From Gemmata obscuriglobus (GTDB lineage Bacteria > Planctomycetota > Planctomycetia > Gemmatales > Gemmataceae): a stretch of DNA of 32,000 nt. A program made the position numbers and the translations under genes. Below the pieces are notes generated by a model that did not search any database, was not told the origin of the DNA, and was given only the letters and a program-made list of their open reading frames with translations. Numbering within the stretch: position 1 is the first letter of the stretch; each line of letters starts with the position of its first letter. Below are positions 262-31,884 of this stretch, in pieces. The DNA is taken from the NCBI RefSeq assembly GCF_008065095.1, contig NZ_CP042911.1, positions 3,630,001 to 3,662,000 on the forward strand. The letters run 5' to 3'.

Positions 262-277
262 CTGGTCGCGCGACCAC
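262..277. repeat. GTGGTCGCGCGACCAC palindrome copy (15/16)
   Basis: ctggtcgcgcgaccac; intergenic, 25 nt before ATG 303. Confidence 0.9.
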
Positions 278-280
278 TTT

Positions 281-295
281 GGATACGGGGAGAAC
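281..295 (+). promoter_or_regulatory. shared 15-nt leader/SD block GGATACGGGGAGAAC
   Basis: Identical to 4166-4180; both lie between a palindrome and an ATG. Confidence 0.6.
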
Positions 296-302
296 GCCAC
301 CG

Positions 303-2561
303 ATGACGAGCGACTACGGCGAGTTTTTGCGGTCGAAGGTGCGGGCGGTCGAGCCGGCGGGGTTCGAGAACGGGCGGCTCCCGAAGGGCCTGTTCCCGCA
401 CCAGCGGGCGATCGTGAAGTGGGCGTGCCGGATGGGCCGCGGGGCGGTCTTCGCCGACACCGGGCTCGGCAAAACGCTGATGCTGCTCGCGTGGGCGGAT
501 CAGGTGTACCGCCGCACCGATCGGCCGGTGCTGGTGCTGACGCCGCTCGCAGTCGCTGAGCAGACGGCAGAAGAGGCGAAGAGATTTGGGATCGAAGGCG
601 TTTTCCGAACCGACTCGCCCGCCGGCTACGTCGATTACTCCCGGGTCGTGGTCACGAACTACCAGAAGCTGCACCGGTTCGACCCGTCCGCCTTCGGTGG
701 CGTTGTTCTGGATGAGAGTTCGATCCTCAAGAGCCACGACGGGGCGTACCGCAAGGCCCTGACGGAGGCGTTCGCGGCCACGCCGTACAAGCTGTGCTGC
801 ACCGCGACCCCGGCCCCGAACGACCACACCGAGATCGGCACCCACGCCGAGTTCTTGGGCGTGATGAGCCGGACGGAGATGCTCGCCACCTACTTCGTTC
901 ACGACTCGGGCGACACGTCGGAGTGGCGGCTGAAGGGGCACGCGGTCCGCGACTTCTGGCGGTGGGTCGCGTCGTGGGCGGTGCTGTGCCGGCGGCCGTC
1001 CGACCTGGGGTTCAGTGACGAGGGGTACGAACTGCCCCCGCTCCGCGTCCACGAGGTCGAGATCGAGACCGCCGCCCAGGCGGGCGTACTGTTCGCGACC
1101 GCGGAGACCACGCTCGCCGGCCAGCGGGCGGCCCGGAAGGAGTCGATGGATGGTCGCGCGACCACGTCCGCCCGGATCGCGAACGAGCCCGGCCCGTGCG
1201 TTGTGTGGGCGGAACTGAACGCCGAAGCCGACGCGGTTCAGGAACTGATTCCGGACGCGGTGCAGGTCGCGGGGGCGGACAAGGACGAGGACAAGCTGTC
1301 GCGGCTGAAGGGGTTCGCGGCTGGAACACACCGGGTGCTGGTCACCAAGACCACCGTGGCCGGGTTCGGGCTCAACTGGCAGCACTGCCGCCGCATGGTG
1401 TTCGTGGGGCTGTCGAACAGCTACGAGCAGTTCTATCAGGCGGTTCGGCGGTGCTGGCGGTTCGGCCAGACGGGGCCGGTGGACGTGTACCTGATCGGCA
1501 CGGCCCGCGACGCCGGGGTGTGGGCGAACATCGCCCGCAAGCAGCGGGACCACGAGGCGATGGTCGAGGGGATGCTACAGCACACCCGGGACGTGAACCG
1601 CGAACAACTGGGGGCGACCGTGAAGCAGACCGACGAGTACCGGACGGGCCGGACCGGGGGCAAGACCGACGCGTGGATGATCCACCTCGGGGACTGCGTG
1701 GAAACGCTCCGCGGGTTCGACCCGGAGTGCGTCGATTACAGCCTGTTCTCGCCCCCGTTCGCGTCGCTCTACACGTACAGCAACTCGCCGCGGGACATGG
1801 GCAACTGCGGCACCTACGCCGAGTTCGCGGCCCACTTCGGGTTCCTCGTGGCGGAACTGTACCGCGTGCTGAAGCCGGGGCGGCTGGTGTCCTTCCACTG
1901 CATGAACCTGCCGACCACGAAAGAGCACCACGGGTACATCGGGATCCAGGACTTCCGCGGCGACCTGATCCGGCAGTTCCAAGCCGCGGGGTTCATCTAC
2001 CACTCGGAGGTGTGCGTCTGGAAGGATCCGGTCACTGCGATGCAGCGGACGAAGGCCCTCGGGCTGCTCCACAAGCAGCTCAAAAAGGACTCGTGCATGT
2101 CGCGGCAGGGGATTCCGGACTTCGTCGTCACGGTGCGGAAGCCGGGCGTCAACCCGGCTCCGGTCAGCCACACGAACGACACGTTCCCGGTGGACCGGTG
2201 GCAACGGTACGCCTCCCCGGTGTGGATGGACATCGACCAGTCCGACACGCTGAACAACTACCGCGACGCCCGCCAGGAGCAGGACGAGCGGCACATCTGC
2301 CCGCTCCAGCTCGGCGTAATCGAGCGGTGCCTGGAGCTGTGGTCGCGCCCGGGCGACCTCGTTCTGTCCCCGTTCGCGGGCATCGGCAGCGAGGGGTACG
2401 TTGCTCTCAAGATGAAGCGGCGGTTCGTCGGGTGCGAGTTGAAGCCGTCGTACTTCGAGATCGCGACCGCGAACCTGCGGCGGGCCGAAGCAGAATCGTC
2501 ACAACCCACATTGTTCGACTGTCTGGGTGAGTCGGAAACTACCCCGGCCGATGCGGCGTAG
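303..2561 (+). CDS. SNF2-family helicase fused to an N6/N4 DNA methyltransferase
   Basis: ORF-track frame 279..2561. ATG 303 is preferred because the same GGATACGGGGAGAAC leader precedes ATG 4185. N-terminal half has helicase motifs ADTGLGKT (Walker A), VLDESS (motif II), CTATPAPN (motif III) and QAVRRCWRFGQ (motif VI). C-terminal half has FSPPF, a (D/S)PP(Y/F) catalytic motif, and SPFAGIGSEG, an FxGxG AdoMet motif. Confidence 0.85.
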   Translation: MTSDYGEFLRSKVRAVEPAGFENGRLPKGLFPHQRAIVKWACRMGRGAVFADTGLGKTLMLLAWADQVYRRTDRPVLVLTPLAVAEQTAEEAKRFGIEGVFRTDSPAGYVDYSRVVVTNYQKLHRFDPSAFGGVVLDESSILKSHDGAYRKALTEAFAATPYKLCCTATPAPNDHTEIGTHAEFLGVMSRTEMLATYFVHDSGDTSEWRLKGHAVRDFWRWVASWAVLCRRPSDLGFSDEGYELPPLRVHEVEIETAAQAGVLFATAETTLAGQRAARKESMDGRATTSARIANEPGPCVVWAELNAEADAVQELIPDAVQVAGADKDEDKLSRLKGFAAGTHRVLVTKTTVAGFGLNWQHCRRMVFVGLSNSYEQFYQAVRRCWRFGQTGPVDVYLIGTARDAGVWANIARKQRDHEAMVEGMLQHTRDVNREQLGATVKQTDEYRTGRTGGKTDAWMIHLGDCVETLRGFDPECVDYSLFSPPFASLYTYSNSPRDMGNCGTYAEFAAHFGFLVAELYRVLKPGRLVSFHCMNLPTTKEHHGYIGIQDFRGDLIRQFQAAGFIYHSEVCVWKDPVTAMQRTKALGLLHKQLKKDSCMSRQGIPDFVVTVRKPGVNPAPVSHTNDTFPVDRWQRYASPVWMDIDQSDTLNNYRDARQEQDERHICPLQLGVIERCLELWSRPGDLVLSPFAGIGSEGYVALKMKRRFVGCELKPSYFEIATANLRRAEAESSQPTLFDCLGESETTPADAA
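1150..1165. repeat. palindrome copy (15/16), in CDS
   Basis: atggtcgcgcgaccac; read as GRATT in the helicase-MTase. Confidence 0.9.
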
Positions 2562-2577
2562 TTGGTCGCGCGTCCAC
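2562..2577. repeat. palindrome copy (14/16)
   Basis: ttggtcgcgcgtccac; starts 1 nt after TAG 2559-2561, 15 nt before ATG 2593. Confidence 0.75.
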
Positions 2578-4143: not shown

Positions 4144-4159
4144 GTGGTCGCGCGACCAC
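4144..4159. repeat. palindrome copy (16/16)
   Basis: Intergenic, 25 nt before ATG 4185. Confidence 0.95.
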
Positions 4160-5171: not shown

Positions 5172-5187
5172 GTGGTCGCGCGACCAC
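5172..5187. repeat. palindrome copy (16/16; 20-bp palindrome 5170-5189)
   Basis: Immediately after TGA 5169-5171, 22 nt before GTG 5210. Confidence 0.95.
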
Positions 5188-5209: not shown

Positions 5210-5557
5210 GTGGAAGTGTGGGCGGCGGTGCTGTCGGCCCTCGTGCAGTCGCGGGGGCACCCGAGGCCGGAACGCGAGTACCGGTTCCATTCGGACCGGA
5301 TGTGGCGGTTCGACCTCGCGTGGCCGGCGCTGAAGGTCGCGTTCGAGCGGGAAGGGCTCGCGACCAAGGGCGGGAAGTCGCGGCACACGACCAACGCCGG
5401 GTACGCGGGCGACATCGAGAAGTACAACGCGGCGGCACTCGCCGGGTGGGTCGTGATCCGCGGCACGACGCGGATGATCGAGAGCGGCGAGGCGGGGAAC
5501 GATCTGCTGACGGCACTCGAACTGGCGAGTGGTCGCGCGACCACTTTGGGGGAATGA
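5210..5557 (+). CDS. Vsr/DUF559-like PD-(D/E)xK endonuclease-fold protein
   Basis: Frame of ORF 5159..5557. GTG 5210 follows ACGGGAG by 7 nt; the alternative start is ATG 5168 (ATGA overlap). Motifs REYRFH..RFDLAWP..VAFEREG..GWVVIRG resemble DUF559/Vsr-type nucleases. Confidence 0.5.
   Translation: MEVWAAVLSALVQSRGHPRPEREYRFHSDRMWRFDLAWPALKVAFEREGLATKGGKSRHTTNAGYAGDIEKYNAAALAGWVVIRGTTRMIESGEAGNDLLTALELASGRATTLGE
5529..5544. repeat. palindrome copy (16/16)
   Basis: In the last codons of the nuclease gene (GRATT), 16 nt before ATG 5561. Confidence 0.95.
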
Positions 5558-6127: not shown

Positions 6128-6143
6128 GTGGTCGCGCGACCAC
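6128..6143. repeat. palindrome copy (16/16; 22-bp palindrome 6125-6146)
   Basis: Between the convergent stops of the sigma gene and the minus-strand minigene. Confidence 0.95.
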
Positions 6144-6342: not shown

Positions 6343-6358
6343 GTGGTCGCGCGACCAC
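6343..6358. repeat. palindrome copy (16/16)
   Basis: 18 nt upstream of minus-strand ATG 6324; 12 nt before the TACCATAA box. Confidence 0.95.
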
Positions 6359-6851: not shown

Positions 6852-8382
6852 GCAGGTCGAGTCGCTGAAGCGGCAGGTGGCCTCAAAGGGGTGGATTGAT
6901 TACGCCAAGTACCGAACCGACCCGGCCGGGTACGCCCGCGACATCTTGAAGGTAAAGTGGTGGGCGAAGCAGGTCGAGATCGCCGAAGCGCTGTGCAAGC
7001 CGCCGTACCGCGTTCTGGTCAAGGCGTCTCACTCCGTCGGAAAGTCACACCTCGCGGGCGGTCTGGTCAACTGGTGGTACGACACCCGGTTCCCGGGCGT
7101 GTGTCTTACGACCGCCCCGACCGATCGGCAGGTCAAGGACGTGCTGTGGAAAGAAGTGCGGCGGCAACGGCGGAAGCGGCCCGGGTTCGTGGGGCCGAAG
7201 ATGCCCCGGTTGGAATCCGACCCCACGCACTTCGCCCACGGGTTCACGGCACGGGATGCTACGAGCTTCCAGGGCCAGCACGAGGCGTCCATCCTGCTCA
7301 TTTTTGATGAAGCGGTCGGGATCGACGGCGATTTTTGGGAGGCCGCCGAGTCGATGTGCCAGGGTGCCGAGTACGGGTGGCTCGCGATCTTCAACCCGAC
7401 CGACACCACCTCGCGGGCGTACCTCGAAGAGCAGGCCGGTTCCCGGTGGACAGTGATCGACATTCCCGCGACCGAGCACCCGAACATCGCGGCCGAACTG
7501 GTCGCGCGACCACCCGAGTACCCGTCGGCGGTCCGACTCAACTGGCTCCGTGATCGGCTGGAGCAGTGGGCCGAGCGGATCGAACCGGGGGACGCGACCC
7601 CGACCGACATCCAATTCCCGAACCCCGACGGCTCGCCGCAGTGGTGGCGACCGGGGCCGTTGGCGGACGCCCGACTGCTCGCCCGGTGGCCGGCGAGCGG
7701 GTGCGGCGTGTGGTCCGATCCTGTGTGGCGTTCCGTCGAGCGTGCCGCCCCAGATCCGGTTCCCGAGCGGTGGTTACCACAAATCGGGTGCGATGTGGCC
7801 CGGTTCGGCGAGGACTGGACCGAATTGCACGTCCGGTGCGGCAACGTCAGTCTGCACCACGAGGCTCACAACGGCTGGGACACCAAGCGGACGACCGAGC
7901 GGCTGAAACAGATGTGCGGCGAGTGGGCACAGTGGGCGACGCAGCTTCGTGATCGCGGTGCAGATCCGATTGACCCGCGACGGATCCCGGTGAAGGTTGA
8001 CGACGACGGAGTAGGCGGCGGCGTCACGGACCAGCGAGGTGGGTTCAACTTTCAGGCCGTGTCGTCCGCCTCGAACGCCAACGACAAAGAGGCGTACCCG
8101 AACCGCCGGAGCGAGTTGTGGTTCACAGTCGCCGACCGGGCCAAACGGGGCGAACTGTTCTTGTCGAACCTACCCGCCCACGTCCGGCAGGAACTGAAGC
8201 GGCAGGCGATGGCCCCGACCTACAAACTGGACGCGGCCGGTCGTCGTGTGGTCGAGCCAAAAGAAGACACGAAAGAACGGATCGGTCGCTCGCCAGACGG
8301 AATGGACGCGGTGAACCTCGCGTACTACGAGCCGAGCGGCCGGGGCGGGGCGGTGGCGGTCGAAGGGTCACGCGGTCGGTGA
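6823..8382 (+). CDS. terL: terminase large subunit
   Basis: GTG 6823 lies 7 nt after AAGAGG. Walker A-like KASHSVGKSH, Walker B-like ILLIFDEA, and RNaseH-like nuclease motif IGCDVARFGEDWTEL. 519 aa. Confidence 0.8.
   Translation: MRLNLRKLREQVESLKRQVASKGWIDYAKYRTDPAGYARDILKVKWWAKQVEIAEALCKPPYRVLVKASHSVGKSHLAGGLVNWWYDTRFPGVCLTTAPTDRQVKDVLWKEVRRQRRKRPGFVGPKMPRLESDPTHFAHGFTARDATSFQGQHEASILLIFDEAVGIDGDFWEAAESMCQGAEYGWLAIFNPTDTTSRAYLEEQAGSRWTVIDIPATEHPNIAAELVARPPEYPSAVRLNWLRDRLEQWAERIEPGDATPTDIQFPNPDGSPQWWRPGPLADARLLARWPASGCGVWSDPVWRSVERAAPDPVPERWLPQIGCDVARFGEDWTELHVRCGNVSLHHEAHNGWDTKRTTERLKQMCGEWAQWATQLRDRGADPIDPRRIPVKVDDDGVGGGVTDQRGGFNFQAVSSASNANDKEAYPNRRSELWFTVADRAKRGELFLSNLPAHVRQELKRQAMAPTYKLDAAGRRVVEPKEDTKERIGRSPDGMDAVNLAYYEPSGRGGAVAVEGSRGR
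7498..7513. repeat. palindrome copy (15/16), in CDS
   Basis: ctggtcgcgcgaccac; read as LVARPP in terL. Confidence 0.9.
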
Positions 8383-8383: not shown

Positions 8384-8399
8384 GTGGTCGCGCGACCAC
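8384..8399. repeat. palindrome copy (16/16)
   Basis: 1 nt after TGA 8380-8382, 15 nt before ATG 8415. Confidence 0.95.
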
Positions 8400-8414: not shown

Positions 8415-11400
8415 ATGGCGATCGATAAGCCGGTTCTGTGGGGGGCGGACGGCAACCCTCTTTCCCAAGAGGGGGCGCTGCTCTCCCCGAACGCCCTGAA
8501 CGTCGCCCAGGTCATCCAGAACGCCGGGAAGATGTACTCGCACACGTGGGACGAGGCGATGCGGGACGCCCCGCAGAACGCCCTCGCCATGCGGCGCGAC
8601 CCGTTCTACCGGTCGATGCTGCAAGAGCGGACCTCGCCGACGCAGAACCTCGACTGGGAGGTGGCGGTTCCGAACGAGGACGATCCGGTCCACCGGTTGC
8701 AGCGGGACACGCTCCAACGCGCGTGGGAGGAGCTTCCGGACAAGCCGAACCTGATGTACTCGCTCCTCGACGGTGCCCTTTGGTGGGGGCGGTCCGGTCA
8801 GCAGGGCATGTGGGGCCAGAGCGACAGCGGGCTCACGAACTGGCTGTACCACGAGCCGGTCCACGGCGACTCGATTCAGCACCAGTGGGACCGCACGCCC
8901 GTCATTCTCGTGTCGTGGCAGGCGAAGCAGAAGTTGGAGCGGGACGACCCCGAGTGCATCATCAGCTCGTCCACCCGCGGGGCGTACGGGCTGCGGCTGT
9001 ACAAGCCCGAGTACCGCAAGCGGTTTATCCTCCACACCCACGTTCGTGAGGCGTCGGACTATTACGAAGGTGAGATGGCGGGCGGCGTCCACGGCGTCGG
9101 GCTCCGCTCGTGGGCGTACTGGGGCGATTACGTCCGCCGCGACATCCTCGCGGCGATGCTCGGGTTCATGAACTCGACCGGGATGATGGACCTCGTCATC
9201 ATCAACTACCCGGACGGCAACGTCGAGGCCGAAAAGCGGGCGATCGCGAACGCCAAGAAGATCAGCGGCAAGCTCGTGCTCATCTGCCCCCGCGACCCGT
9301 CGAAGGACTGGCCCGCGGTCGAACAGGTGCCGATGAACACCGCCGGCGTCGAGGTGGTGCAGAACCTGCTGGAGAACTACTTCGACCGTTACACGCGGGA
9401 GCTGTTCGTCGGGCAGAACATGAGCAACGGCGGCGGCGGGCCGGGCGGGCTGGAGGGCGATGGCCGCGCCGAACTGGCCGGCGATACCAAGTTCCAACTC
9501 TGCAAGACGGACGCCCGCCGCTTGGCCGAGACGCTCACGCGGGACTGGCTCGTCCCGTGCCGGGATTACAACTTCCCCGGCTCGAAGGTGCCGGTGACGA
9601 TGAAGCCCATCCTGGCCGATCCCAAGGCCAAGGAGAAGGCACAGAACATTAGCGTCTGCGTCGCCAACGGCATCGAGATCGAGGAAGACGAGGCACGCCG
9701 GGCGTTGGGCTTCTCGAAGCCGCGAGAGGGCAAGAAAACGATCGGGGCGAAGCCGGCGGCCGATCCGACGAACCCGACCGCACCACCGGGCGACGGCGGG
9801 GCGGTCGCGCGCCCACCCCAGCCCCCGAAGCCGGACGGCGGGCACGACCTCGCGACCGACTTCCTCCAGCGGATCGGGCGGCTGGAAGATCTGCTCATGT
9901 ACCGGCTGAACCAGCCGCCGTGGCCGGGTGCGGTGTTCGACGAACAGCGCCACCGCTGGGTGAACAAGGACGGCAGCGACGGGCCGCAAGGTGGTCGCGC
10001 GACCACAGCCGGGAACGGTAACGGCCAACCGGCCCCGCAGCTCGGCGACGCGGACCGGGACGACATCGCCAACGGCATCGACGCCGACGTGCGGGCCTGG
10101 AAGGGTGAGGAGATCCCGCCCGGACTCGTGCAGCGGGCGAAGGACGTGGCACTGACGATTGCGGCCAAAACCTACATCTGGGCGACGCAGGCCACGCACT
10201 CGAAGGCAATGGCGACGCTCGGCGAGGTGATGGGGGCCGTGTTCGACACGCCGGCCGACATGATGAAGTTGGGGTACAACCCGTCCACGTCGAGCGGCAC
10301 GTCCGGTGCGGGCGTGGCCGATCCGGTCAAGGCGAACCTGAACGACGCGTTCGGCGTCGGCGTGTCCGGTCACCTCGTCGCGTCCGTCGCGTCGAAGGTG
10401 CTGGTGAAGGCGGCATATTGGGTGCGGAACCGGACGCAGAAGGGCGAGCAGCCGACCGCCCTCTCTTTGGTGGCGTTGCTGTACGAAGGCGACCAAGAGC
10501 CGGACGGGTTCTTCGAGTGGGCCGAGTTCATCGCGACCGTGCTTCAGAGGACCGCAAAGGGGATCGGCAGCGACGCCCAGATGCCGGACGCGGCGACCGT
10601 CGAGCGGAACCTGCGGGCGCTGGTGGAAGAACGCCAGAAAGCCGAAGGGGACGACGACCTCACCGGGTACGCGTGGGACGAATCGCAGGTCAAGCGGGAC
10701 GGGGACGGTCAGTTCGCCCCGAAGAACGGTGGGGAGTACGGACCCGACCACCCCCGCACCCGCAAGGGGCGGCCGGTGCCGCGGTCCGCAATCCGTCTGG
10801 CCGCCACCTCCCCGGACGATGCCGACGAGATCCGCAAGCGGTTGAGCGTTCCGGCCGAACGCGAGAAGTTCGACGCGGCGGTCAAGGCCGAGAAGCGACG
10901 GATCGGTGACGCCCGCCGCAAGAAGCGGCTCGACCTCGCCGGCAAGGCCGCCGCCGCCGAAGGCGACCGGATCGGCAAGATGCCCGCCGCGGCCCGCCGG
11001 CTCAAACTCGACGGACTCGCGGCCGAACTCTCGCAGGCGGCGAACGCGATCCGATCGGCCCACACGGTCAAGCAGGCCAAGACCGAACTCAAAGCGGTCA
11101 AAAAGCGAATCGCGACGGCCGCCAAGGATGTTCGCAAGGCGTTCGGGGAAGAGGCAACTCGGTACGCCGGAACACTCGGCGTACCGGACCGGATTGCCAA
11201 GGAGATCGGTCGCGGCATCGCGTCGGCCGCCAAATACGACAACGTTCCGCCGCTACCAACGGACGCGATCGAAGACGCTCTGGGCGAAGTAAACTCGGCA
11301 TGGAGCAGCGGTCGCCGACGCGACGCCTTGAAGAACCTGACGGACGCGTTCGACGCGTCACTCGACACCTCTCGTGTTGCGGCGGCCGTTAAGGATTGGG

Positions 11401-21501: not shown

Positions 21502-22049
21502 TCAGCCCCGACCACTGATAGCCTCAACGACACATGCTGCGATGCTCTCGTAACGGGCCACCGCCGCTTCCTCTACTCGCTTGCGACCGGCCCAGACGCC
21601 GACGAAGGTGCGGTAGGGGAGTCGAGCGGGATCGAGGGCGAAGCCCGCGGCGGCGAGATCGAGAAAGGGCGGGCACTTGCGGCGAGTTGCTGCAAGAACG
21701 CCAGGAATCTGAACAGCACAAGCAGTCGCTCAGCTTCCGTCAGTCCGGCCGCCCCGTCCAGCGGTCGCAGCCCGAACATGGCGTCCGCGGCCTTGACGAG
21801 TGCCGTCACTGCGTCCGCTTTCTTCTGCTTCATGTCGGCGGCGACGGGCGTACCGGCCATTGCGGCGGCGAGGTCCGCCGGCACCTCGTGCGCGAGCACC
21901 CGGAGCCGATCCTCGTAGTCCGGGCACGATTCTTCGAGGACCCGGCCCGCAACCATCGGATCGGCCCGCCGTGTCGCGGTGCCGTCGAAGTACGCGAAGA
22001 TCTGCCGCTGGTGGTCACGCGACCACCAGCGGCGAAGGAAACCGAACAT
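21502..22049 (-). CDS. tail assembly chaperone, -1 frameshift fusion (GT-like), predicted
   Basis: The -1 frame is open from the slip site (21663-21669) to TGA (21504-21502). It has no start codon of its own. It encodes the protein-like sequence LDLAAAGFALDPARLPYRTFVGVWAGRKRVEEAAVARYESIAACVVEAISGRG. Confidence 0.5.
21573..22049 (-). CDS. tail assembly chaperone (G-like, 0-frame product)
   Basis: Lies between the tube-like and tape-measure-like genes. Contains an in-phase C_CCT_TTC slippery heptamer. Confidence 0.5.
   Translation of the reverse strand: MFGFLRRWWSRDHQRQIFAYFDGTATRRADPMVAGRVLEESCPDYEDRLRVLAHEVPADLAAAMAGTPVAADMKQKKADAVTALVKAADAMFGLRPLDGAAGLTEAERLLVLFRFLAFLQQLAASARPFSISPPRASPSIPLDSPTAPSSASGPVASE
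21663..21669 (-). other. -1 programmed frameshift slippery heptamer C_CCT_TTC
   Basis: + strand gaaaggg. The phase is exactly X_XXY_YYZ relative to the chaperone 0 frame (codons P128 F129). Confidence 0.55.
22011..22026. repeat. palindrome copy (15/16), in CDS
   Basis: gtggtcacgcgaccac; read as WWSRDH near the chaperone N-terminus. Confidence 0.85.
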
Positions 22050-22612: not shown

Positions 22613-22628
22613 GTGGTCGCGCGACCAC
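22613..22628. repeat. palindrome copy (16/16) in divergent intergenic region
   Basis: 17 nt before ATG 22646; 6 nt from the minus-strand TACCATAT box. Confidence 0.95.
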
Positions 22629-25332: not shown

Positions 25333-25348
25333 GTGGTCGCGCGACCAC
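25333..25348. repeat. palindrome copy (16/16; 20-bp palindrome 25331-25350)
   Basis: Between minus-strand genes, 24 nt upstream of GTG 25308. Confidence 0.95.
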
Positions 25349-26010: not shown

Positions 26011-26026
26011 GTGGTCGCGCGACCAC
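26011..26026. repeat. palindrome copy (16/16)
   Basis: Between minus-strand genes, 24 nt upstream of GTG 25986. Confidence 0.95.
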
Positions 26027-26487: not shown

Positions 26488-26757
26488 ATGGCCATCCCAG
26501 CCGTGGCGAAGAAAAACATCAGGACCGGCTTTGGGAAGCGACTCCGCGAGTTGCGGATCGACAAGAATTTGACTCAATCCCAGCTCGGTGAGCGTGCCGG
26601 GATGATGTACCAAGATGTAGCGAAACTCGAACGTGGCGAACGTGAGCCGATGTGGGCTACCGTCATTCGCTTGGCTGATGCTCTTGGCGTGCGGGCTGAT
26701 GACTTCCGCACGCTCGAAGATCCGTTGGCCGATCTCCCGGAGTTGCCGCTGGAGTGA
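26488..26757 (+). CDS. XRE/Cro-CI family HTH regulator
   Basis: In-frame ATG 26488. KRLRELRIDKNLTQSQLGERAGMMYQDVAKLERGEREP is a classic HTH_3 pattern. Confidence 0.8.
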   Translation: MAIPAVAKKNIRTGFGKRLRELRIDKNLTQSQLGERAGMMYQDVAKLERGEREPMWATVIRLADALGVRADDFRTLEDPLADLPELPLE

Positions 26758-26760: not shown

Positions 26761-26776
26761 GCGGTCGCGCGACCAC
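26761..26776. repeat. palindrome copy (15/16)
   Basis: gcggtcgcgcgaccac; 3 nt after TGA 26755-26757. Confidence 0.9.
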
Positions 26777-27799: not shown

Positions 27800-27991
27800 A
27801 TGCGTCGCTGGGTCGAACACCGCCTCTACGTTCTGGATCGCGTGACGGGCGACCCGTTCTGGGGCCGGGTGTTCGCGGGCGTGCTCGTTGCCGTCCTCGC
27901 GGCACTCCTGATTTACCGCGGGTACGTTCAACCCCGGGTGGGCGCGCGCCCACCCGATCGGGTTCCGGCGGCCGGGCCGGGCGTACAATAA
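27800..27991 (+). CDS. small membrane protein (63 aa)
   Basis: TM segment VFAGVLVAVLAALLIY. Contains the symmetric palindrome variant. Confidence 0.4.
   Translation: MRRWVEHRLYVLDRVTGDPFWGRVFAGVLVAVLAALLIYRGYVQPRVGARPPDRVPAAGPGVQ
27938..27953. repeat. symmetric palindrome variant GTGGGCGCGCGCCCAC, in CDS
   Basis: T5->G and A12->C together keep perfect dyad symmetry. Confidence 0.7.
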
Positions 27992-27995: not shown

Positions 27996-28226
27996 ATGGC
28001 GACGACGATCGAGGATGTGCTGGCGGTGCTGGCGAAGAACGCCAAGCGAATGAGGGGCGACCGGACGCAAGCCGACCTCGCGGAGGCGAGCGGTTTGACG
28101 GTCTCGCAGATCTCGCAGATCGAGAGCGGGAGGCCGGAGAACCCGCCGTCCGTGCGGACGCTCGTGGCCCTGGCGAACGGGCTCGGGGTGGACGTGTCGG
28201 AGCTGCTCAAGCGGGCGGCGGGGTAG
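27996..28226 (+). CDS. XRE family HTH regulator
   Basis: RMRGDRTQADLAEASGLTVSQISQIESGRPENP is a classic HTH_3 pattern. 76 aa. Confidence 0.8.
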   Translation: MATTIEDVLAVLAKNAKRMRGDRTQADLAEASGLTVSQISQIESGRPENPPSVRTLVALANGLGVDVSELLKRAAG

Positions 28227-28527
28227 CATCCCTCTTTTGGCGTTCGACCCATTTGTCGATCCGGACCGTGTTGCCGTCCGCGTCGTAAACGTACCCGCCG
28301 CGGGCAACGGCCCCCGGCTTGTAAACCGGATCGTGCCCGCCTTGGGTGCGTTCGGAGATCGGCTCGTGCAGCCCCGCCGCGATCATTTCCAGCCGCACCG
28401 ACTTCACCACCGGCCGCGAACACCCGCACTCCTTCGCCACGTCCCGGTCCGACAGCGACTGGTTCTTCTTCGACCGCAGGAACTTCCGCACCCGCAGTCT
28501 CAGCCCCAGATTCTTGTGACCCGCCAT
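28207..28527 (-). CDS. putative HTH DNA-binding protein (106 aa)
   Basis: Minus-strand ATG 28527 follows GAGGAG. SLSDRDVAKECGCSRPVVKSVR is HTH-like. Convergent with the XRE gene and overlaps it by 20 nt. Confidence 0.5.
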   Translation of the reverse strand: MAGHKNLGLRLRVRKFLRSKKNQSLSDRDVAKECGCSRPVVKSVRLEMIAAGLHEPISERTQGGHDPVYKPGAVARGGYVYDADGNTVRIDKWVERQKRDATPPPA

Positions 28528-28540: not shown

Positions 28541-28556
28541 CTGGTCGCGCGGCCAC
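28541..28556. repeat. palindrome copy (14/16)
   Basis: ctggtcgcgcggccac; 13 nt upstream of minus-strand ATG 28527. Confidence 0.75.
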
Positions 28557-28645: not shown

Positions 28646-28661
28646 GTGGTCGCGCGGCCAC
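28646..28661. repeat. palindrome copy (15/16)
   Basis: gtggtcgcgcggccac; in the long non-coding gap. Confidence 0.85.
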
Positions 28662-29164: not shown

Positions 29165-29464
29165 ATGCCGCGTCCGGCCGACCGCAAACCGAAGGCGAAG
29201 AACGCGAAGCGGGTGGACCCGACGAAAACGGTCCTGACCGCGACGGACGGCGAAGCCCTGCCGGTCGCGAGCGGGCTGGGGCTGTACCTGCTGCTCGAGG
29301 GGCCGGTGGTGAACCGCCGGTGGCGGGTGTACGACCGGGCGACCGGGGCGTTCCTCGCACGAGCGGACCCGCAAGGTGGTCGCGCGACCGGCCCGCGGAT
29401 CGGCACCCTGACCGGCGGCTGGCGGGAGCTGCTCGCGGAGATCCGGAAGCGAACCGGAGCCTGA
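29165..29464 (+). CDS. hypothetical basic protein
   Basis: ATG 29165 follows GGAAGGAAGGG. 99 aa. Confidence 0.5.
   Translation: MPRPADRKPKAKNAKRVDPTKTVLTATDGEALPVASGLGLYLLLEGPVVNRRWRVYDRATGAFLARADPQGGRATGPRIGTLTGGWRELLAEIRKRTGA
29376..29391. repeat. palindrome copy (14/16), in CDS
   Basis: gtggtcgcgcgaccgg; read as GGRATG. Confidence 0.7.
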
Positions 29465-29488: not shown

Positions 29489-29504
29489 GTGGTCGCGCGA
29501 CCAC
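29489..29504. repeat. palindrome copy (16/16)
   Basis: Intergenic; 6 nt before the TACCATAA box. Confidence 0.95.
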
Positions 29505-29757: not shown

Positions 29758-29773
29758 GTGGTCGCGCGACCAC
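29758..29773. repeat. palindrome copy (16/16)
   Basis: 2 nt after TAA 29753-29755, 33 nt before GTG 29807. Confidence 0.95.
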
Positions 29774-30077: not shown

Positions 30078-30093
30078 GTGGCCGCGCGACCAC
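30078..30093. repeat. palindrome copy (15/16)
   Basis: gtggccgcgcgaccac; 17 nt before ATG 30111. Confidence 0.9.
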
Positions 30094-30110: not shown

Positions 30111-30641
30111 ATGGCGGGCGGGCGGGAGTGGACGACGGGCGAGGAGGCCGAACTGAAACGGCTCCTCGCTGCCGGAACGAAGCTGGCGACCGTCGCCAAA
30201 CGGCTGAACCGGTCCTACTCGGCGGTGGCCCAGCGGGCGTTCCGGGTGTCGGGCCGGGAGCGGCTGCCCCGGCTCCACAAGGCCGGTGAGTTGGAGGAGC
30301 GGGTGCGGTCGCTTTCGGTTCCCGGCGTTCCTGACGCGGTGGTCGCGGGCATCCTGGGCGTGACCCGGCAGACCGTTCTGAAGACCCGCCAGCGGCTCGG
30401 TATCCCCCAGAGCGTACCGCCGAACGGGAAACTGCCCCGCGACCCGGCCAAGCGGTCGGACCTGTCGATCGCCGCGAAGGTGCTGTGGCTGTACTCGGGC
30501 GTCGGGCGGTCCGATGTGGTGATTGCGAAGCGGATCGGCGTGTCGAGAACGACCGTCCGCGATTACCGGCTCAAATTCAACCTGCCGGCGTTGGGCGAAC
30601 TGAAGTGTGGTCGCGCGACCACTACGGAGGTGCAGAAATGA
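30111..30641 (+). CDS. multi-HTH (Myb/SANT-like) DNA-binding protein
   Basis: ATG 30111 follows GGGAGG. WTTGEEAELKRLLAAGTKLATVAKRLNRSYSAVAQRA plus two further HTH-like segments. Confidence 0.5.
   Translation: MAGGREWTTGEEAELKRLLAAGTKLATVAKRLNRSYSAVAQRAFRVSGRERLPRLHKAGELEERVRSLSVPGVPDAVVAGILGVTRQTVLKTRQRLGIPQSVPPNGKLPRDPAKRSDLSIAAKVLWLYSGVGRSDVVIAKRIGVSRTTVRDYRLKFNLPALGELKCGRATTTEVQK
30607..30622. repeat. palindrome copy (16/16)
   Basis: In the last codons of the HTH gene (CGRATT), 15 nt before thyX ATG 30638. Confidence 0.95.
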
Positions 30642-31567
30642 AAGTCATCACCGAGCCTTCGGTTTACGTCTTGGGCCGACAAACGGTCGATCAGGCCGAA
30701 CTCGATCGATTTTTGGTCGACCACGGCGTGAGCTGGGAGAGTGACAGCGAGGTCGCTGGCGAAGTGCTCACGGAAACGGCGGGACGCGTCTGTTATATGT
30801 CGTTCGCGAAGCCGCGACCGGGCGGCAACAGCGCGTACCTGACCCACATCAAGGAAGTGGGGCACGGGAGCGTGCTGGAGCACGCGGTGTGGAACCTGCT
30901 CCTCACCGGGGTGTCGCGGTCGCTCACGCACGAGCTGGTGCGGCACCGCGCCGGGTTCGGGTTCAGCCAGCTCTCGCAGCGGTACGTGGACGAGTCGGTG
31001 GCCGAGTACGTGGAGCCCGACATCATCGCCCGCGACCCCGAGTTGCACGCGATCTGGCTCGAATCGGTGAAGCAGTCGCACGCGGCGTACATGAAGCTCG
31101 CCGACGCGCTCAGCGCGAAGCTAACGAACACGTTCGGTCCGTGCGACAACCCGAACTGTGAGCGTGGTTACCAAGCGGACCACCTGAAGGTTCGGACCTA
31201 TGTGGCTTGCCCCACATGCAAAGGGAGTCCCAGTAAGGCATGGTACGCTGCGCCGCTCGGTCGGTTTGTGCCGGGATGGGAGAACGGTCTGACCGCGACT
31301 GATCGCCGCAAGGCCGCGCGTCAGGCCGCGCGGAGCGTGCTGCCGAACGCCACCGAGACCAAGATCTTCATCACCGCGAACGCCCGTGCTCTGCGGCACT
31401 TCATGGAGCAGCGTGGATCGGTCCACGCCGAACCGGAGATTCGGAAGCTCTCGTGCGCGATCCTTGACGCGCTCCAGAAAGACGCCCCCAACCTCTTCAG
31501 TGACTACCAGAAGGTGCCCCTTCCCGACGGCACGTTTGAACTGGTGACGCAGTTCAAGAAGGTGTGA
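30638..31567 (+). CDS. thyX: flavin-dependent thymidylate synthase ThyX with an internal Cys4 insertion
   Basis: ATG 30638 (ATGA overlap, ACGGAGG SD). ThyX signature LTHELVRHRAGFGFSQLSQRY (RHRxxSxxxxSxR). 309 aa. Confidence 0.85.
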   Translation: MKVITEPSVYVLGRQTVDQAELDRFLVDHGVSWESDSEVAGEVLTETAGRVCYMSFAKPRPGGNSAYLTHIKEVGHGSVLEHAVWNLLLTGVSRSLTHELVRHRAGFGFSQLSQRYVDESVAEYVEPDIIARDPELHAIWLESVKQSHAAYMKLADALSAKLTNTFGPCDNPNCERGYQADHLKVRTYVACPTCKGSPSKAWYAAPLGRFVPGWENGLTATDRRKAARQAARSVLPNATETKIFITANARALRHFMEQRGSVHAEPEIRKLSCAILDALQKDAPNLFSDYQKVPLPDGTFELVTQFKKV

Positions 31568-31578
31568 GGAGCCGCAGC

Positions 31579-31884
31579 ATGAGCCAGAAGTCCAAGTCCC
31601 CACAAGAGGTGGCGAGAGAGCAAACGCTCGCGATCTCGGAACACCTGTACCTCGCCGGCCGCGACGGGCTGACCGCCGAGCAACTGGCCGGCGCGGCCAA
31701 GTTTCCGGTCGAGATCGTTCGAAAGCGGCTCCACGCCGGCGGCCCGAACTGTGCGAACCCCGAGTGGCGGCGGTTCACGTTCGACCGGCTGACGAACCGC
31801 TGGGCACTGACGCTCGGTGGGGAGCAAGTTTTGAAGAGAAGTGGTCGCGCGACCACCCGCCCGGGGCGGCGGCGGATCGCCTGA
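31579..31884 (+). CDS. hypothetical (winged-helix-like?) protein
   Basis: ATG 31579 lies 8 nt after GGAG. 101 aa. A palindrome copy lies in its last 15 codons. Confidence 0.5.
   Translation: MSQKSKSPQEVAREQTLAISEHLYLAGRDGLTAEQLAGAAKFPVEIVRKRLHAGGPNCANPEWRRFTFDRLTNRWALTLGGEQVLKRSGRATTRPGRRRIA
31841..31856. repeat. palindrome copy (16/16)
   Basis: In the last codons of gene 31579..31884 (SGRATT). Confidence 0.95.

What the first reader, a model, noticed from the sequence alone, without database searches (positions are those of the whole stretch)
262..31856. A 16-bp perfect palindrome GTGGTCGCGCGACCAC marks almost every gene junction (39 copies)
There are 20 perfect copies, 9 with one mismatch and 10 with 2-3 mismatches. 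Many extend to 18-22 bp: AAGTGGTCGCGCGACCACTT at 25331-25350, GAGGTGGTCGCGCGACCACCTC at 6125-6146, and CCGGTGGTCGCGCGACCACCGG at 11806-11827. Between nt 1 and 17.7 kb all 14 non-overlapping gene junctions carry one copy. It sits at or just after the stop codon and 14-33 nt before the next start, immediately 5' of the SD. Minus-strand genes show the same geometry (6343, 21484, 25333, 26011, 28541), with distances of 11-24 nt. The motif is absent from the low-GC island (17715-19078) and from 22629-25332 (virion gene plus array). A 16-mer should not recur by chance in 32 kb. It is not a classical terminator: the hairpin is 6-9 bp, there is usually no U-tract, and it also occurs inside genes. Candidate roles are: binding sites for a dimeric HTH protein acting genome-wide (compare the stoperators of Cluster A mycobacteriophages); intercistronic RNA processing or stability hairpins (compare the RNase III sites between T7 genes, or the start-associated sequences of Cluster K phages); or recombination/cassette boundaries (attC- or REP-like).
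Basis: partly seen in the sequence, partly recalled or inferred. Interest (0 to 1): 0.88.

Follow-up and report, generated by a model that had tools for sequence, protein, structure and literature searches.

The report
Genome-wide 16-bp palindrome in Gemmata prophage
A 50-kb prophage of the planctomycete Gemmata obscuriglobus carries over 50 copies of one exact 16-bp palindrome, mostly at its gene junctions, and this is most likely a dispersed set of DNA-binding sites for a phage-encoded ParB-like regulator, which would be a new variant of the "stoperator"/KorB type of whole-element control.

Summary
The window has 20 perfect copies and 41 at three or fewer mismatches, against 0 and 0.8 expected by chance.

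The window is part of a roughly 50-kb tRNA-Arg-integrating prophage of Gemmata obscuriglobus. The assembled element carries 57 copies, 33 of them perfect. 33 of the 53 copies with at most 2 mismatches lie in the 10% of the element that is non-coding. They usually sit 0-4 nt after a stop codon and 7-33 nt before the next start.

The identical 16-mer, or a genome-wide variant of it, recurs in at least nine related Gemmata-type elements. These share only 30-80% protein identity, and the one tested by blastn shares no DNA similarity. About 11 kb of host flank has no copy.

Copies inside genes sit in non-conserved linkers at homologous positions. They are read as GRATT or VVARP and never as WSRDH, so selection acts on the nucleic acid.

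Wherever the early region was held, motif-bearing elements encode a ParB/KorB/Noc-like protein. The window holds a short paralogue of its central region.

The best explanation is a set of dispersed operator or parS-like DNA sites. An intercistronic RNA hairpin is not excluded, and no binding has been shown.

The parts
262..277 (.). palindrome copy, 1 mismatch (CTGG...), intergenic
   Evidence: 1 nt after the stop at 260, 25 nt before the start at 303
1150..1165 (.). copy, 1 mismatch, inside the SNF2-methylase gene, read as GRATT
2562..2577 (.). copy, 2 mismatches, intergenic
   Evidence: abuts the stop at 2561, about 21 nt before the next start
4144..4159 (.). perfect copy, intergenic (DnaN-like gene | PAPS-reductase-like gene)
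   Evidence: 4 nt after the stop, 25 nt before the start at 4185
5172..5187 (.). perfect copy, intergenic
   Evidence: abuts the stop at 5171, 22 nt before the start at 5210
5529..5544 (.). perfect copy in the last codons of gene 5210-5557 (GRATT), 16 nt before the sigma-factor start at 5561
6128..6143 (.). perfect copy between convergent genes (22-bp palindrome with its flanks)
   Evidence: 3 nt and 1 nt after the two stops; hairpin -17.4 kcal/mol
6343..6358 (.). perfect copy 18 nt upstream of the minus-strand gene start at 6324 and 11 nt upstream of the -10-like CTACCATAA at 6370
7498..7513 (.). copy, 1 mismatch, inside the TerL gene (VARP frame)
8384..8399 (.). perfect copy, TerL | portal junction
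   Evidence: 1 nt after the stop, 15 nt before the start at 8415
9801..9816 (.). copy, 2 mismatches, inside the portal-fusion ORF (VARP frame)
9991..10006 (.). perfect copy inside the portal-fusion ORF (GRATT)
11677..11692 (.). perfect copy inside the portal-fusion ORF (GRATT)
11809..11824 (.). perfect copy inside the portal-fusion ORF (GRATT)
11887..11902 (.). copy, 1 mismatch, inside the portal-fusion ORF (GRATT)
12993..13008 (.). perfect copy inside ORF 12819-13532 (VVARP)
13533..13548 (.). copy, 2 mismatches, intergenic; followed 1 nt later by CTACCATAA and a leaderless-looking ATG at 13562
14751..14766 (.). perfect copy, intergenic
   Evidence: 19 nt after the stop, 29 nt before the start at 14796
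15219..15234 (.). copy, 2 mismatches, intergenic, upstream of the gene at 15268-16371, read here as the major capsid gene
   Evidence: 18 nt after the stop, 33 nt before the start at 15268
16392..16407 (.). copy, 1 mismatch, intergenic
   Evidence: 20 nt after the stop, 25 nt before the start at 16433
17099..17114 (.). perfect copy, intergenic, just after a separate terminator-like hairpin at 17056-17087
   Evidence: 14 nt before the start at 17129
17699..17714 (.). copy, 2 mismatches, intergenic, last copy before the low-GC island
   Evidence: abuts the stop at 17698
19079..19094 (.). degenerate copy, 3 mismatches (doubtful), abuts the stop at 19078 at the end of the low-GC island
20060..20075 (.). 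copy, 2 mismatches, inside ORF 19915-20397 (GRATT)
21484..21499 (.). perfect copy 11 nt upstream of the minus-strand gene start at 21472
22011..22026 (.). copy, 1 mismatch (central GTCACGC), inside minus-strand gene 21573-22049
22613..22628 (.). perfect copy in a divergent region, 17 nt before the start at 22646 and just downstream of the -10-like CTACTATAT
25333..25348 (.). perfect copy 1 nt after the stop of the minus-strand gene 25350-25628/25721 (start uncertain), and upstream in minus sense of the repeat array
26011..26026 (.). perfect copy between two minus-strand genes
   Evidence: 1 nt after a stop, 24 nt before the next start
26761..26776 (.). copy, 1 mismatch, 3 nt after the stop of XRE gene 26488-26757
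27938..27953 (.). copy with a symmetric double change (GTGGGCGCGCGCCCAC), inside ORF 27800-27991
28541..28556 (.). copy, 2 mismatches, 13 nt upstream of the start of the ParB-central-region paralogue gene
28646..28661 (.). copy, 1 mismatch, in the 637-nt divergent intergenic region
29376..29391 (.). copy, 2 mismatches, inside ORF 29165-29464 (GRATT-type frame)
29489..29504 (.). perfect copy, intergenic, 5 nt upstream of CTACCATAA at 29510
29758..29773 (.). perfect copy, intergenic
   Evidence: 2 nt after the stop, 33 nt before the start at 29807
30078..30093 (.). copy, 1 mismatch, intergenic
   Evidence: 1 nt after the stop, 17 nt before the start at 30111
30607..30622 (.). perfect copy in the last codons of the multi-HTH gene (GRATT), 15 nt before the ThyX start at 30638
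31841..31856 (.). perfect copy in the last codons of gene 31579-31884 (GRATT), 33 nt upstream of CTACCATAA at 31890
28207..28527 (-). gene for a 106-aa HTH protein (GobsT_31170); short paralogue of the central region of the ParB-like protein; candidate binder or repressor
   Evidence: (P0007); homologue also in L005 (P0009)
26488..26757 (+). XRE-family HTH gene (alternative candidate binder)
27996..28226 (+). XRE-family HTH gene (alternative candidate binder)

Best explanation
GTGGTCGCGCGACCAC, more fully R-GTGGTCGCGCGACCAC-Y, is a DNA recognition site for a sequence-specific dimeric DNA-binding protein encoded by the element itself. About 57 copies are spread over the roughly 50-kb Gemmata obscuriglobus prophage.

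The prime candidate binder is a ParB/KorB/Noc-like protein. It has a ParB/Srx N-terminal domain, an HTH and a Cys-rich C-terminal domain. Its gene lies 3.8-5 kb left of the window, directly after an excisionase-like HTH_17 gene. A second candidate is its 106-aa short paralogue in the window (28207-28527, minus strand).

Inferred mechanism: the protein occupies the sites, or loads there and spreads. A few copies overlap the -35/spacer region of -10-like elements or lie just downstream of them. Most lie at gene junctions and some lie inside genes, where a bound protein would act as a roadblock or silencer or would organise the DNA. This resembles stoperators in Cluster A mycobacteriophages and the O_B sites of KorB on plasmid RK2.

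The junction position is explained by lack of room. A fixed 16-mer under selection for many copies fits only in intergenic gaps, or in tolerant protein linkers where it reads as GRATT or VVARP.

Shown here: copy number, positions, conservation, variants, co-occurrence with the protein family, and the ParB-like fold. Inferred: binding, the identity of the binder, and the regulatory outcome.
For: (1) The copy number is far above chance: 20 perfect copies in the window, and 33 perfect / 57 at three or fewer mismatches in the 49.4-kb composite.

(2) Positions 3, 4, 6, 8-11, 13 and 14 are invariant in 53 copies, and position 7 differs in one.

(3) The same 16-mer is present in L005, which shares only 30-50% protein identity and has no blastn match to the window. 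It is also present in L142/L143, L140, L271, L272, L060 and L150.

(4) Two lineages have changed their copies genome-wide. In L144, 7 of the 9 copies read GTGGCCGCGCGGCCAC, the same change in both half-sites, and the other two differ from it only at position 1. In L139, 12 of the 13 copies have a GCAC or GTGC centre; the other reads GCGT.

(5) Intragenic copies sit at homologous positions in four or five phages while the surrounding linker amino acids are unalignable. The DNA, including synonymous positions, is conserved. All 10 perfect coding copies read GRATT (9) or VVARP (1), never WSRDH.

(6) A site lies inside the parB-like gene itself in the L132, L142, L140, L139 and L144 homologues, and it follows the local variant, reading GRAAT in L144.

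(7) Wherever the early region was held, the motif-bearing element encodes the ParB-like protein (L132, L060, L139, L140, L142, L144, L150, L271, L272). L005 encodes only the short paralogue. TerL relatives without the motif (L128-L131) show no homologue in the parts held.

(8) The protein is ParB-like. PF02195 is on record for P0004 and P0006. There are weak sulfiredoxin profile hits. P0001 matches PHROG 1033, 'ParB-like partition protein'. The AlphaFold model (pLDDT 76) matches ParB, Noc, KorB and Spo0J structures over about 150 residues.

(9) Operator-like placement: copies lie 1-11 nt upstream of the -10-like CTACCATAA at 6343, 13533 and 29489, and 33 nt upstream at 31841. The equivalent in L005 is GGTATAAC. 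Paired copies 53-70 bp apart lie in the regulatory intergenic regions of L139, L060 and L167, next to an XRE gene in L139 and L167.

(10) The motif is confined to the elements. There are 0 copies in 10 kb of host DNA next to the G. palustris element and in 1.1 kb next to the G. obscuriglobus attL.

(11) GCGC is 5-20-fold avoided in these elements yet retained at every motif centre, which argues for strong constraint on the central bases.
Against: No binding data exist.

Most co-occurring elements were found through homologues of the ParB-like protein or the integrase, so they are relatives, and shared descent could explain the association. Only L060, L150 and L005 are semi-independent.

No residue in the HTH of the ParB-like protein or of the HTH_17 protein visibly covaries with the L144 or L139 site variants. 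XRE repressors and the HTH_17 protein are equally possible binders.

A symmetric double change also fits a conserved RNA stem.

The tight placement right after stop codons and upstream of SD sequences, a copy ahead of an apparent internal start in the primase-like gene, and the excess of mismatches in the transcription-upstream arm (21 against 8) all hint at a directional, possibly RNA-level, component.

No ParA partner was found. The GxxR motif reads DGGHR rather than the canonical GERR, so CTP-clamp behaviour is unproven.

The Foldseek matches for the 106-aa paralogue are generic HTH folds and not significant.
Confidence: 0.5

Rival explanations
1. The motif is an intercistronic RNA hairpin. 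When transcribed, the palindrome folds into a 6-9-bp stem with a GCGC loop at each junction. It would act as an mRNA processing or stability element, or as a translation insulator just upstream of each SD, possibly recognised by a sequence-specific RNA-binding protein or nuclease.
For: It sits 0-4 nt after stops and 7-33 nt before starts on both strands, including before an apparent in-frame internal start conserved in four phages. Isolated hairpins are moderately stable, -12 to -17 kcal/mol. The L144 variant keeps pairing (U-A becomes C-G), and the L139 variant changes only loop bases. Mismatches concentrate in the transcription-upstream arm. There is weak -1/+17 pairing covariation.
Against: Exact 16-nt identity across phages that otherwise share no DNA similarity is not needed for a plain hairpin. 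Ten perfect copies lie inside ORFs of the element (4 in the portal ORF, 1 perfect plus 1 near copy in the parB-like gene), where cleavage or termination would be harmful. Single-arm variants mostly create C·A mismatches rather than G·U pairs. A·C occurs at the flanking pair in 13 of 53 copies. In context the hairpin is sometimes not the minimum-energy fold (sites 8384 and 16392). The distance to the start is variable. There is no Rfam match. Only 2 of about 27 copies are terminator-like.
Confidence: 0.2
2. The site is read by a host-encoded factor, such as a Gemmata transcription factor or nucleoid protein, or it is a host REP-like repeat that mobile elements of this host have adopted.
For: The same 16-mer occurs in at least two kinds of Gemmata elements beyond the phage family: the L060 integrative element in a Gemmata MAG and the small L150 element in G. 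palustris. Sequence identity across diverged phages would follow naturally from a conserved host protein.
Against: There are 0 copies in the host DNA sampled next to these elements: 10 kb in L150 and 1.1 kb in L147. There are also none in 4 kb of unidentified sequence in L145. Of the 120 genome and 120 metagenome stretches returned by the truncated scans for the exact 16-mer (about 0.67 Mb for the metagenome set), only L060 and four short contigs hold more than one copy, and three of those four show protein similarity to the prophage. Lineage-specific variants exist in L139 and L144. L060 and L150 also carry the ParB-like gene, so they are not independent of the element-encoded candidate.
Confidence: 0.1
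3. The motif marks recombination or cassette boundaries, or is a self-spreading micro-repeat. Identical 16-20-bp junction sequences would promote exchange of gene modules between related phages, or would be inserted by an element-encoded nuclease or recombinase.
For: It marks 35 of 61 gene junctions. It is shared by mosaic relatives with rearranged gene order. HNH and tyrosine-recombinase genes are present. Genome-wide variant replacement in L139 and L144 could reflect copying from a master copy.
Against: It is too short and lacks the arm-spacer-arm layout of tyrosine-recombinase cores. It does not resemble the attP/tRNA-Arg core. In L139, 7 of the 8 coding copies carry the strand of the central change that keeps the GRATT or VVARP peptide, as expected for point mutation under selection in place rather than re-insertion. 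Copy positions are conserved between phages. No conserved sequence lies beyond about 18 bp.
Confidence: 0.07

Closest known systems
Stoperators of Cluster A mycobacteriophages (L5, Bxb1; PMC6550527, PMC9283540)
   Same: There are tens of copies of one short site spread over a temperate phage genome. In Cluster A the motif covaries between lineages with repressor and genome distance (PMC6550527); here two lineages carry their own variants. From my own knowledge, Cluster A sites lie mostly in short intergenic regions, with some in genes. The same protein acts at the early promoter and as a block to elongation.
   Different: Stoperators are 13-bp asymmetric sites with one predominant orientation, bound by a monomeric two-domain repressor. 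Here the site is a perfect 16-bp palindrome, which implies a dimer. It is about twice as numerous, and the host is a planctomycete. The candidate binder is ParB-like, and binding is unproven.
KorB and its O_B operators on plasmid RK2, with KorA or TrbA partners (PMC11790492, PMC13584720)
   Same: A ParB-family protein encoded by a mobile element recognises a short palindrome dispersed over the element. It represses promoters nearby and at a distance. Foldseek matches the phage protein to KorB structures 8qa8 and 8qa9. A small HTH gene is a constant neighbour.
   Different: From my own knowledge, RK2 has about a dozen 13-bp O_B sites. Here there are about 57 16-bp sites, mostly at gene junctions of a prophage. 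The C-terminal domain differs (Cys-rich). CTP binding and sliding are untested. No ParA/IncC partner was found.
Chromosomal and plasmid ParB-parS, and Noc-NBS
   Same: The site is a 16-bp perfect palindrome. The protein has a ParB/Srx N-domain followed by an HTH. A site lies inside the parB-like gene itself, as for the parS inside B. subtilis spo0J (my own knowledge).
   Different: parS sites are few and clustered near an origin or par locus and work with ParA. Here the sites are dispersed over the whole element, there is no ParA, and the element integrates at tRNA-Arg. The sequence is unrelated to the TGTTNCACGTGAAACA consensus.
17-bp dyad repeat of Cluster O mycobacteriophages (TGTTCGGNNNCCGAACA; PMC4351075)
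   Same: There are more than 30 copies per genome with invariant inverted arms. Copies lie partly between ORFs and partly inside them, at conserved positions among relatives. Function is unknown.
   Different: The sequence is different, and the Cluster O repeat has a 3-bp variable spacer. No binder has been proposed for it. Here the centre is invariant within a genome, and a candidate protein family co-occurs.
Intercistronic RNase III sites of T7, and REP hairpins of enterobacterial operons
   Same: They are hairpin-forming sequences at gene junctions of polycistronic units.
   Different: These are longer and imperfect, and their sequences are not identical from site to site. REPs are host-chromosomal. 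Here the stem is 6-9 bp, the sequence is identical at every copy, and copies also lie inside ORFs.

Membership tests
Cluster A-type stoperator system | Many copies (about 24-35) of one short site dispersed over a temperate phage genome, mostly in short intergenic regions | tested here: met
   57 copies in 49.4 kb. 33 of the 53 copies with at most 2 mismatches lie in the 10.4% of the element that is non-coding.
Cluster A-type stoperator system | An asymmetric 13-bp site with one predominant orientation relative to transcription | tested here: not met
   The site is a perfect 16-bp palindrome. Only a weak excess of mismatches in the upstream arm was seen.
Cluster A-type stoperator system | Bound by the immunity repressor, which blocks elongation | not testable with these tools
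   No binding or expression data. Homology of the window proteins to L5 gp71 was not tested.
ParB-parS / KorB-O_B / Noc-NBS | The element encodes a protein with a ParB/Srx N-domain followed by an HTH DNA-binding domain | tested here: met
   PF02195 is on record for P0004 and P0006. P0001 matches PHROG 1033 at E=2e-6. Foldseek matches ParB, Noc, KorB and Spo0J at E=1e-5 to 1e-3 over about 150 columns. The gene lies outside the window (L132:2951-4138).
ParB-parS / KorB-O_B / Noc-NBS | A short (13-16 bp) palindromic cognate site present on the same replicon | tested here: met
   The site is a 16-bp palindrome, with a copy inside the parB-like gene in the L132, L142, L140, L139 and L144 homologues.
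ParB-parS / KorB-O_B / Noc-NBS | The protein binds that site specifically | not testable with these tools
   Only co-occurrence was shown. No HTH residues covary with the site variants.
ParB-parS / KorB-O_B / Noc-NBS | A CTP-binding GxxR (GERR-type) motif and clamp closure | tested here: inconclusive
   The motif reads DGGHR/DGWHR/DGRHR, more like Srx or a ParB-like nuclease. Biochemistry is needed.
ParB-parS / KorB-O_B / Noc-NBS | A ParA-type ATPase partner encoded next to it (for partition systems) | tested here: not met
   No ParA/CbiA-type Pfam hit appears among the called genes of L132, L136, L137 and L145 or among the window proteins scanned.
Intrinsic (Rho-independent) terminator | A G+C-rich hairpin followed by a U-tract | tested here: not met
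   Only 2 of about 27 copies in 1-20 kb pass the scan. A genuine-looking terminator at 17056-17087 is a different sequence.
Host REP/BIME-like repeats | Hundreds of copies spread over the host chromosome, independent of mobile elements | tested here: inconclusive
   There are 0 copies in about 11 kb of host flank. Almost all hits of the truncated genome and metagenome scans are single copies. The G. obscuriglobus chromosome could not be scanned whole.
Cluster O-type dyad repeats (function unknown) | More than 30 copies of an invariant inverted repeat at conserved positions, both between and inside ORFs | tested here: met
   Compared with PMC4351075. This is the same phenomenon with an unrelated sequence.
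RNase III-type intercistronic processing sites | A long (about 20 bp or more) imperfect duplex | tested here: not met
   The stem is 6-9 bp with a 4-nt loop.

The most novel reading that the evidence does not exclude
A ParB/KorB-fold protein, possibly together with its HTH-only paralogue acting as the lysogenic repressor, uses more than 50 parS-like palindromes placed at most gene junctions to silence, insulate or compact an entire 50-kb prophage. This would be a prophage-scale, ParB-based equivalent of stoperators in Planctomycetes. The sites are the one place where the otherwise strongly avoided GCGC tetramer is kept, perhaps because the bound protein shields it from restriction.
Probability: 0.3. 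Interest if true: 0.8.

Novelty: new variant of a known kind. Interest (0 to 1): 0.62.

Why it matters
Very little is known about viruses and gene regulation in Planctomycetes. Here a single exact 16-mer organises a whole prophage family. It comes with a concrete, testable pair of candidate binders and natural specificity variants in L139 and L144.

If the ParB-like protein binds, the recently described KorB principle (a ParB-family clamp used as a long-range repressor) would extend from plasmids to prophages. It would also offer a mechanistic lead for other unexplained phage-wide dyad repeats, such as the Cluster O repeat.

The identical junction sequence gives a ready substrate for modular exchange between phages. 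It is also a simple marker for finding Gemmata-type mobile elements in metagenomes.

The GCGC exception links regulatory sites to restriction avoidance in a way that can be tested.

Tried and rejected
**Database and pattern searches**
- Near-identity search in GenBank phages gave only a trivial methylase hit.
- Rfam gave no family at gathering threshold, and only a chance hit in the array region.
- No tRNA was found in the window.
- The intrinsic-terminator reading was rejected.
- No paper holds the exact 16-mer.

**Sequence statistics**
- Flank-extension covariation is significant only at the first flanking pair and is weak. The "18-22 bp palindromes" are mostly an R/Y preference.

**Collection scans**
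They did not even reach the G. obscuriglobus record, so they cannot settle host-chromosome density.

**Binder identification**
- I looked for binder-site covariation in the HTH of the ParB-like proteins and in the HTH_17 proteins and found no convincing specificity residue.
- The Foldseek result for the 106-aa paralogue shows only generic, non-significant HTH matches.
- NCBIfam gives no name for the ParB-like family.
- Pfam on the 395-aa protein itself gives no hit. The ParB assignment rests on its homologues and on the fold.

**Other**
- The P0004 contig could not be fetched because the file was too large.
- I considered a recombinase core site, a pac/cos element, iterons and a promoter for the phage sigma factor. 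All were rejected on symmetry, length or dispersal.

Full report
**1. The observation**

The exact 16-mer GTGGTCGCGCGACCAC occurs 20 times in the 32-kb window, and none of 100 shuffles had a single copy. Allowing up to three mismatches gives 41 copies: 20 perfect, 9 with one mismatch, 9 with two and 3 with three. Shuffles give a mean of 0.83.

The quoted 20-22-bp extensions exist. Across 53 copies, however, the flanks show mainly a purine at -1 (49/53) and a pyrimidine at +17 (47/53). Pairing covariation is weak at that first flanking pair (29 observed against 21.3 expected, p=0.014) and absent further out. A·C combinations at that pair are common, 13 of 53.

Positions 3, 4, 6, 8-11, 13 and 14 never vary, and position 7 differs in one copy.

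**2. What the window is**

There is no close relative among GenBank phages. Window proteins are found, residue for residue, in Gemmata obscuriglobus assemblies: GCA_000171775.1, LR593888.1 and several Logan contigs.

Overlapping contigs extend the window 7.9 kb to the left (L132) and 9.4 kb to the right (L137). This gives a 49,358-bp composite. Its left end holds a tyrosine integrase next to the 3' part of a tRNA gene. In the draft assembly the integrase is followed by an intact tRNA-Arg(ACG) and a host BON-domain gene.

In the complete genome LR593888.1 the integrase is instead joined through an attP-type junction to the right end of the element. The element is therefore about 50 kb and also exists as a circular or tandem form.

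Gene content is that of a temperate tailed phage:
- integrase, excisionase-like HTH_17 protein, DEAD helicase;
- an SNF2-methylase fusion, a DnaN-like clamp, a sigma factor;
- large terminase, a Mu-type portal fused to a long tail, a gene read here as the major capsid gene;
- a superinfection-immunity protein, two XRE proteins and ThyX.

**3. Anatomy of the repeat in the whole element**

The composite has 57 copies at three or fewer mismatches: 33, 10, 10 and 4 with zero to three mismatches.

Of the 53 copies with at most two mismatches, 33 lie in the 10.4% of the sequence that is non-coding. That is a 14-fold enrichment. Of 61 gene junctions, 35 carry a copy. Junctions with a copy have a median gap of 42 nt, and those without have a median gap of 9.5 nt.

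At junctions the motif usually starts 0-4 nt after the upstream stop and ends 7-33 nt before the next start, ahead of the SD. This holds on both strands. Copies also stand alone:
- after the last gene of a unit (6128, 25333, 26761);
- before the first gene of a unit (6343, 21484, 28541, and upstream of the integrase).

Twenty-three copies lie inside ORFs. All 10 perfect ones are read as GRATT (9) or VVARP (1). None uses the WSRDH frame, although that frame has the best third-position G+C. My frame labels were swapped, as the translations show, and they are corrected here.

Only 2 of about 27 copies in the first 20 kb resemble an intrinsic terminator. A real-looking terminator at 17056-17087 has a different sequence. 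Rfam has no match.

**4. Relatives**

A scan of IMG/VR for the 16-mer found one multi-copy contig, L005, with 11 perfect and 6 near copies in 14 kb. L005 shares TerL, portal, protease and capsid-region genes with the window at only 30-50% identity. It has no blastn similarity to the window, yet it shows the same stop-motif-SD-start layout.

The genome scan was truncated. Among its 120 rows the only multi-copy hit was L060, an integrative element in a Gemmata MAG.

Homologues of a ParB-like protein (section 5) and of the integrase led to further elements:
- L142/L143: 7 perfect copies in 10 kb.
- L140: the core GGTCGCGCGACC eight times.
- L271 and L272: 9 and 13 copies.
- L150 in G. palustris: 4 copies, all on the element side of the integrase.
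- L139 and L144: variant motifs.

In L139, 12 of the 13 copies carry GTGGTCGCACGACCAC or its complement. Among the 8 coding copies, 7 carry the strand of the central change that keeps GRATT or VVARP, as expected for point mutation of pre-existing sites under protein-level selection.

In L144 the motif is GTGGCCGCGCGGCCAC, the same change in both half-sites. There are nine copies in 5.5 kb: seven exact and two differing only at position 1. In frame it reads GRAAT.

TerL relatives L128 (51% identity) and L129 (41%) have no over-represented 12-mer at all.

Host DNA sampled next to these elements has no copy: 10 kb in L150 and 1.1 kb in L147. Four kb of unidentified sequence in L145 also has none.

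The metagenome scan was also truncated. It added four short multi-copy contigs; three of them show protein similarity to the prophage, and L179 shows none.

**5. A candidate binder**

Comparing all composite proteins with L005 and L060 showed that one small window protein is the only protein with homologues in both. It is 106 aa, encoded at 28207-28527 on the minus strand, and annotated GobsT_31170.

In L060 the match lies in the middle of a 418-aa protein. That protein is itself homologous (33%) to a 395-aa protein of the prophage encoded just left of the window (L132:2951-4138). The gene sits between the excisionase-like HTH_17 gene and the helicase gene.

The larger protein has three parts:
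- an N-terminal domain with a DGGHR motif;
- a central HTH;
- a Cys-rich C-terminal domain, after a disordered linker that itself contains motif copies.

Evidence that it is ParB-like:
- Homologues P0004 and P0006 carry PF02195.
- A profile gives weak sulfiredoxin hits.
- P0001 matches PHROG 1033, "ParB-like partition protein".
- An AlphaFold model (pLDDT 76) matches ParB, Noc, KorB and Spo0J structures over about 150 residues.

The family is large, with 11,298 representatives at E<=1e-10. No ParA was seen in the element.

The small paralogue folds into a confident helical HTH-like N-terminal half, but its structural matches are generic.

Wherever the early region was held, the motif-bearing element has the ParB-like gene, always next to an HTH_17 gene.

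I could not find residues in either protein that track the L144 or L139 site variants. XRE repressors next to paired copies in L139 and L167 remain alternative binders.

**6. Evidence that selection acts on the nucleic-acid sequence**

Two intragenic sites were compared across phages: one in the parB-like gene and one in the primase-like gene. Each lies at the homologous position in four or five phages. The surrounding codons and amino acids are unalignable, while the 16-mer is kept, including at synonymous positions.

The tetramer GCGC is strongly avoided in these elements. Outside motif copies the composite has 80 GCGC against 410 expected. L272 has 20 observed against 146 expected overall, and L139 has 39 against 167. 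GCGC is at expectation in the host flank of L150 and in the motif-less relatives L128 and L129.

Yet 57 of the 137 GCGC in the composite sit at motif centres. Only L139 has lost the central GCGC. The centre is therefore under strong constraint, or it is shielded.

**7. Placement at promoter-like elements**

A second short motif, CTACCATAA, occurs four times in the window against 0.7 expected. It contains a -10-like TACCAT. Each copy lies 1-33 nt downstream of a palindrome copy. Two copies lie 3 nt before an ATG, which suggests leaderless transcripts.

L005 has the equivalent GGTATAAC after the palindrome upstream of the homologous protease gene. At these places the palindrome would overlap the -35/spacer region. 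At 22613 and in L167 it lies just downstream of a -10-like element. These are typical operator positions. They are read by eye, because the sigma-70 scan finds nothing useful in this organism.

**8. Interpretation**

The combination of evidence fits a set of DNA sites read by a sequence-specific dimeric protein better than a plain RNA hairpin:
- an exact palindrome, invariant at its centre;
- conservation across phages that share no DNA similarity;
- half-site-symmetric and central variants that are genome-wide within a lineage;
- conserved intragenic copies;
- operator-like placement at -10-like elements;
- confinement to mobile elements that share a ParB-like HTH protein family.

The junction position can be explained by room. 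Only gaps and tolerant linkers can hold a fixed 16-mer. Placing it next to the stop keeps the unavoidable mRNA hairpin away from the ribosome-binding site.

Some features do not follow from this model and keep the RNA-level rival alive:
- the excess of mismatches in the transcription-upstream arm (21 against 8, and the same trend in L005 and L272);
- the copy ahead of an apparent internal start in the primase-like gene;
- the closeness to stop codons.

**9. Comparison and novelty**

The phenomenon belongs to a known kind, phage- or plasmid-wide dispersed sites. Known examples are Cluster A stoperators (PMC6550527, PMC9283540), KorB O_B sites (PMC11790492) and the unexplained Cluster O dyad repeat (PMC4351075).

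It is not a member of the stoperator family, because it is symmetric and has no preferred orientation. It is not a canonical partition system, because there is no ParA and the sites are dispersed.

The exact sequence appears in no paper searched. I rate it a new variant of a known kind. Interest is moderate to high because of the host phylum, the scale, the candidate ParB-type binder and the natural specificity variants.

Noticed in passing
window 24538-25108, minus strand: A CRISPR-like array with 8 repeats of about 36 nt and a period of about 72 nt. The consensus on the minus strand is CTCTCCACGGGTTGACnCCCGTGGCCGAATTGAAGC. The stem and the ...ATTGAAGC end are conserved, but the loop differs between repeats. 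About 36-nt unique spacers separate the repeats. No cas gene was recognised among the window proteins scanned, and there is no Rfam match. A palindrome copy (25333) lies just upstream in minus sense.
   Followed up: partly
whole composite (window plus L132 and L137); also L139, L140, L142, L005, L271, L272: The tetramer GCGC is 3-7-fold depleted overall (about 5-fold in the composite outside motif copies, 80 observed against 410 expected; 20 against 146 overall in L272). It is at expectation in the adjacent host DNA (L150) and in the motif-less relatives L128 and L129. 57 of the 137 remaining GCGC in the composite are the centres of the palindrome. L139 has lost the central GCGC from 12 of its 13 copies. 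This suggests restriction avoidance, with the motif exempt or shielded.
   Followed up: partly
window 6370-6378, 13550-13558, 29510-29518, 31890-31898 (also L137 about 8045): A second short motif, CTACCATAA, contains a -10-like TACCAT. There are 4 exact copies against 0.7 expected. Each lies just downstream of a palindrome copy. Two copies lie 3 nt before an ATG (13562, 31902), suggesting leaderless mRNAs. L005 has GGTATAAC at the equivalent place.
   Followed up: partly
window 17715-19078 and 19196-19897: A low-GC island (53% G+C) with two ORFs of unknown function and no palindrome copy. It is followed by a gene with a superinfection-immunity (Imm_superinfect) domain. It is probably a recently acquired moron region.
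   Followed up: partly
L145 (LR593888.1 4,811,920-4,833,005) against L147 (ABGO01000499.1): In the draft assembly the integrase is next to an intact tRNA-Arg(ACG) and a host BON-domain gene, so the element is integrated. In the complete genome the integrase is joined by an attP-type junction to the right end of the element. About 4 kb of unrelated DNA interrupts the element at composite position about 7250. This means a circular or tandem form, or an assembly artefact, together with a possible insertion.
   Followed up: partly
window 8415-12512: The portal protein (Mu-type portal domain, residues 58-432) is fused to a tail of about 900 residues that is partly low-complexity. The tail holds five palindrome copies, four of them read as GRATT.
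   Followed up: no
L132:7456-7500 (window about -455); homologous places in L142, L140 and L139: The 'intragenic' palindrome copy in the primase-like gene is followed in all four phages by an SD-like sequence and an in-frame GTG or ATG 17-24 nt later. This suggests a conserved internal translation start giving two isoforms.
   Followed up: partly
all oriented copies (composite, L005, L272): Mismatches are concentrated in the transcription-upstream arm (positions 1, 2 and 5: 21 against 8 in the mirror positions). In L272, 10 of the 13 copies have a terminal position changed at one end, and 4 of the 5 oriented intergenic copies have it at the upstream end (CTGG...CCAC in sense). The DNA-site model does not explain this.
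   Followed up: partly
window 303-2561, 3039-4139, 5561-6124, 30638-31567: The prophage carries an unusual replication and expression toolkit: an SNF2 helicase fused to an N6/N4 DNA methylase, its own DnaN-like sliding clamp, a sigma factor and ThyX.
   Followed up: no
L132 end (14039-14054) and other Logan contig ends: One short-read contig of this element (L132) ends 3 nt after a palindrome copy. The repeat may break assemblies and so hide such elements in metagenomes.
   Followed up: no
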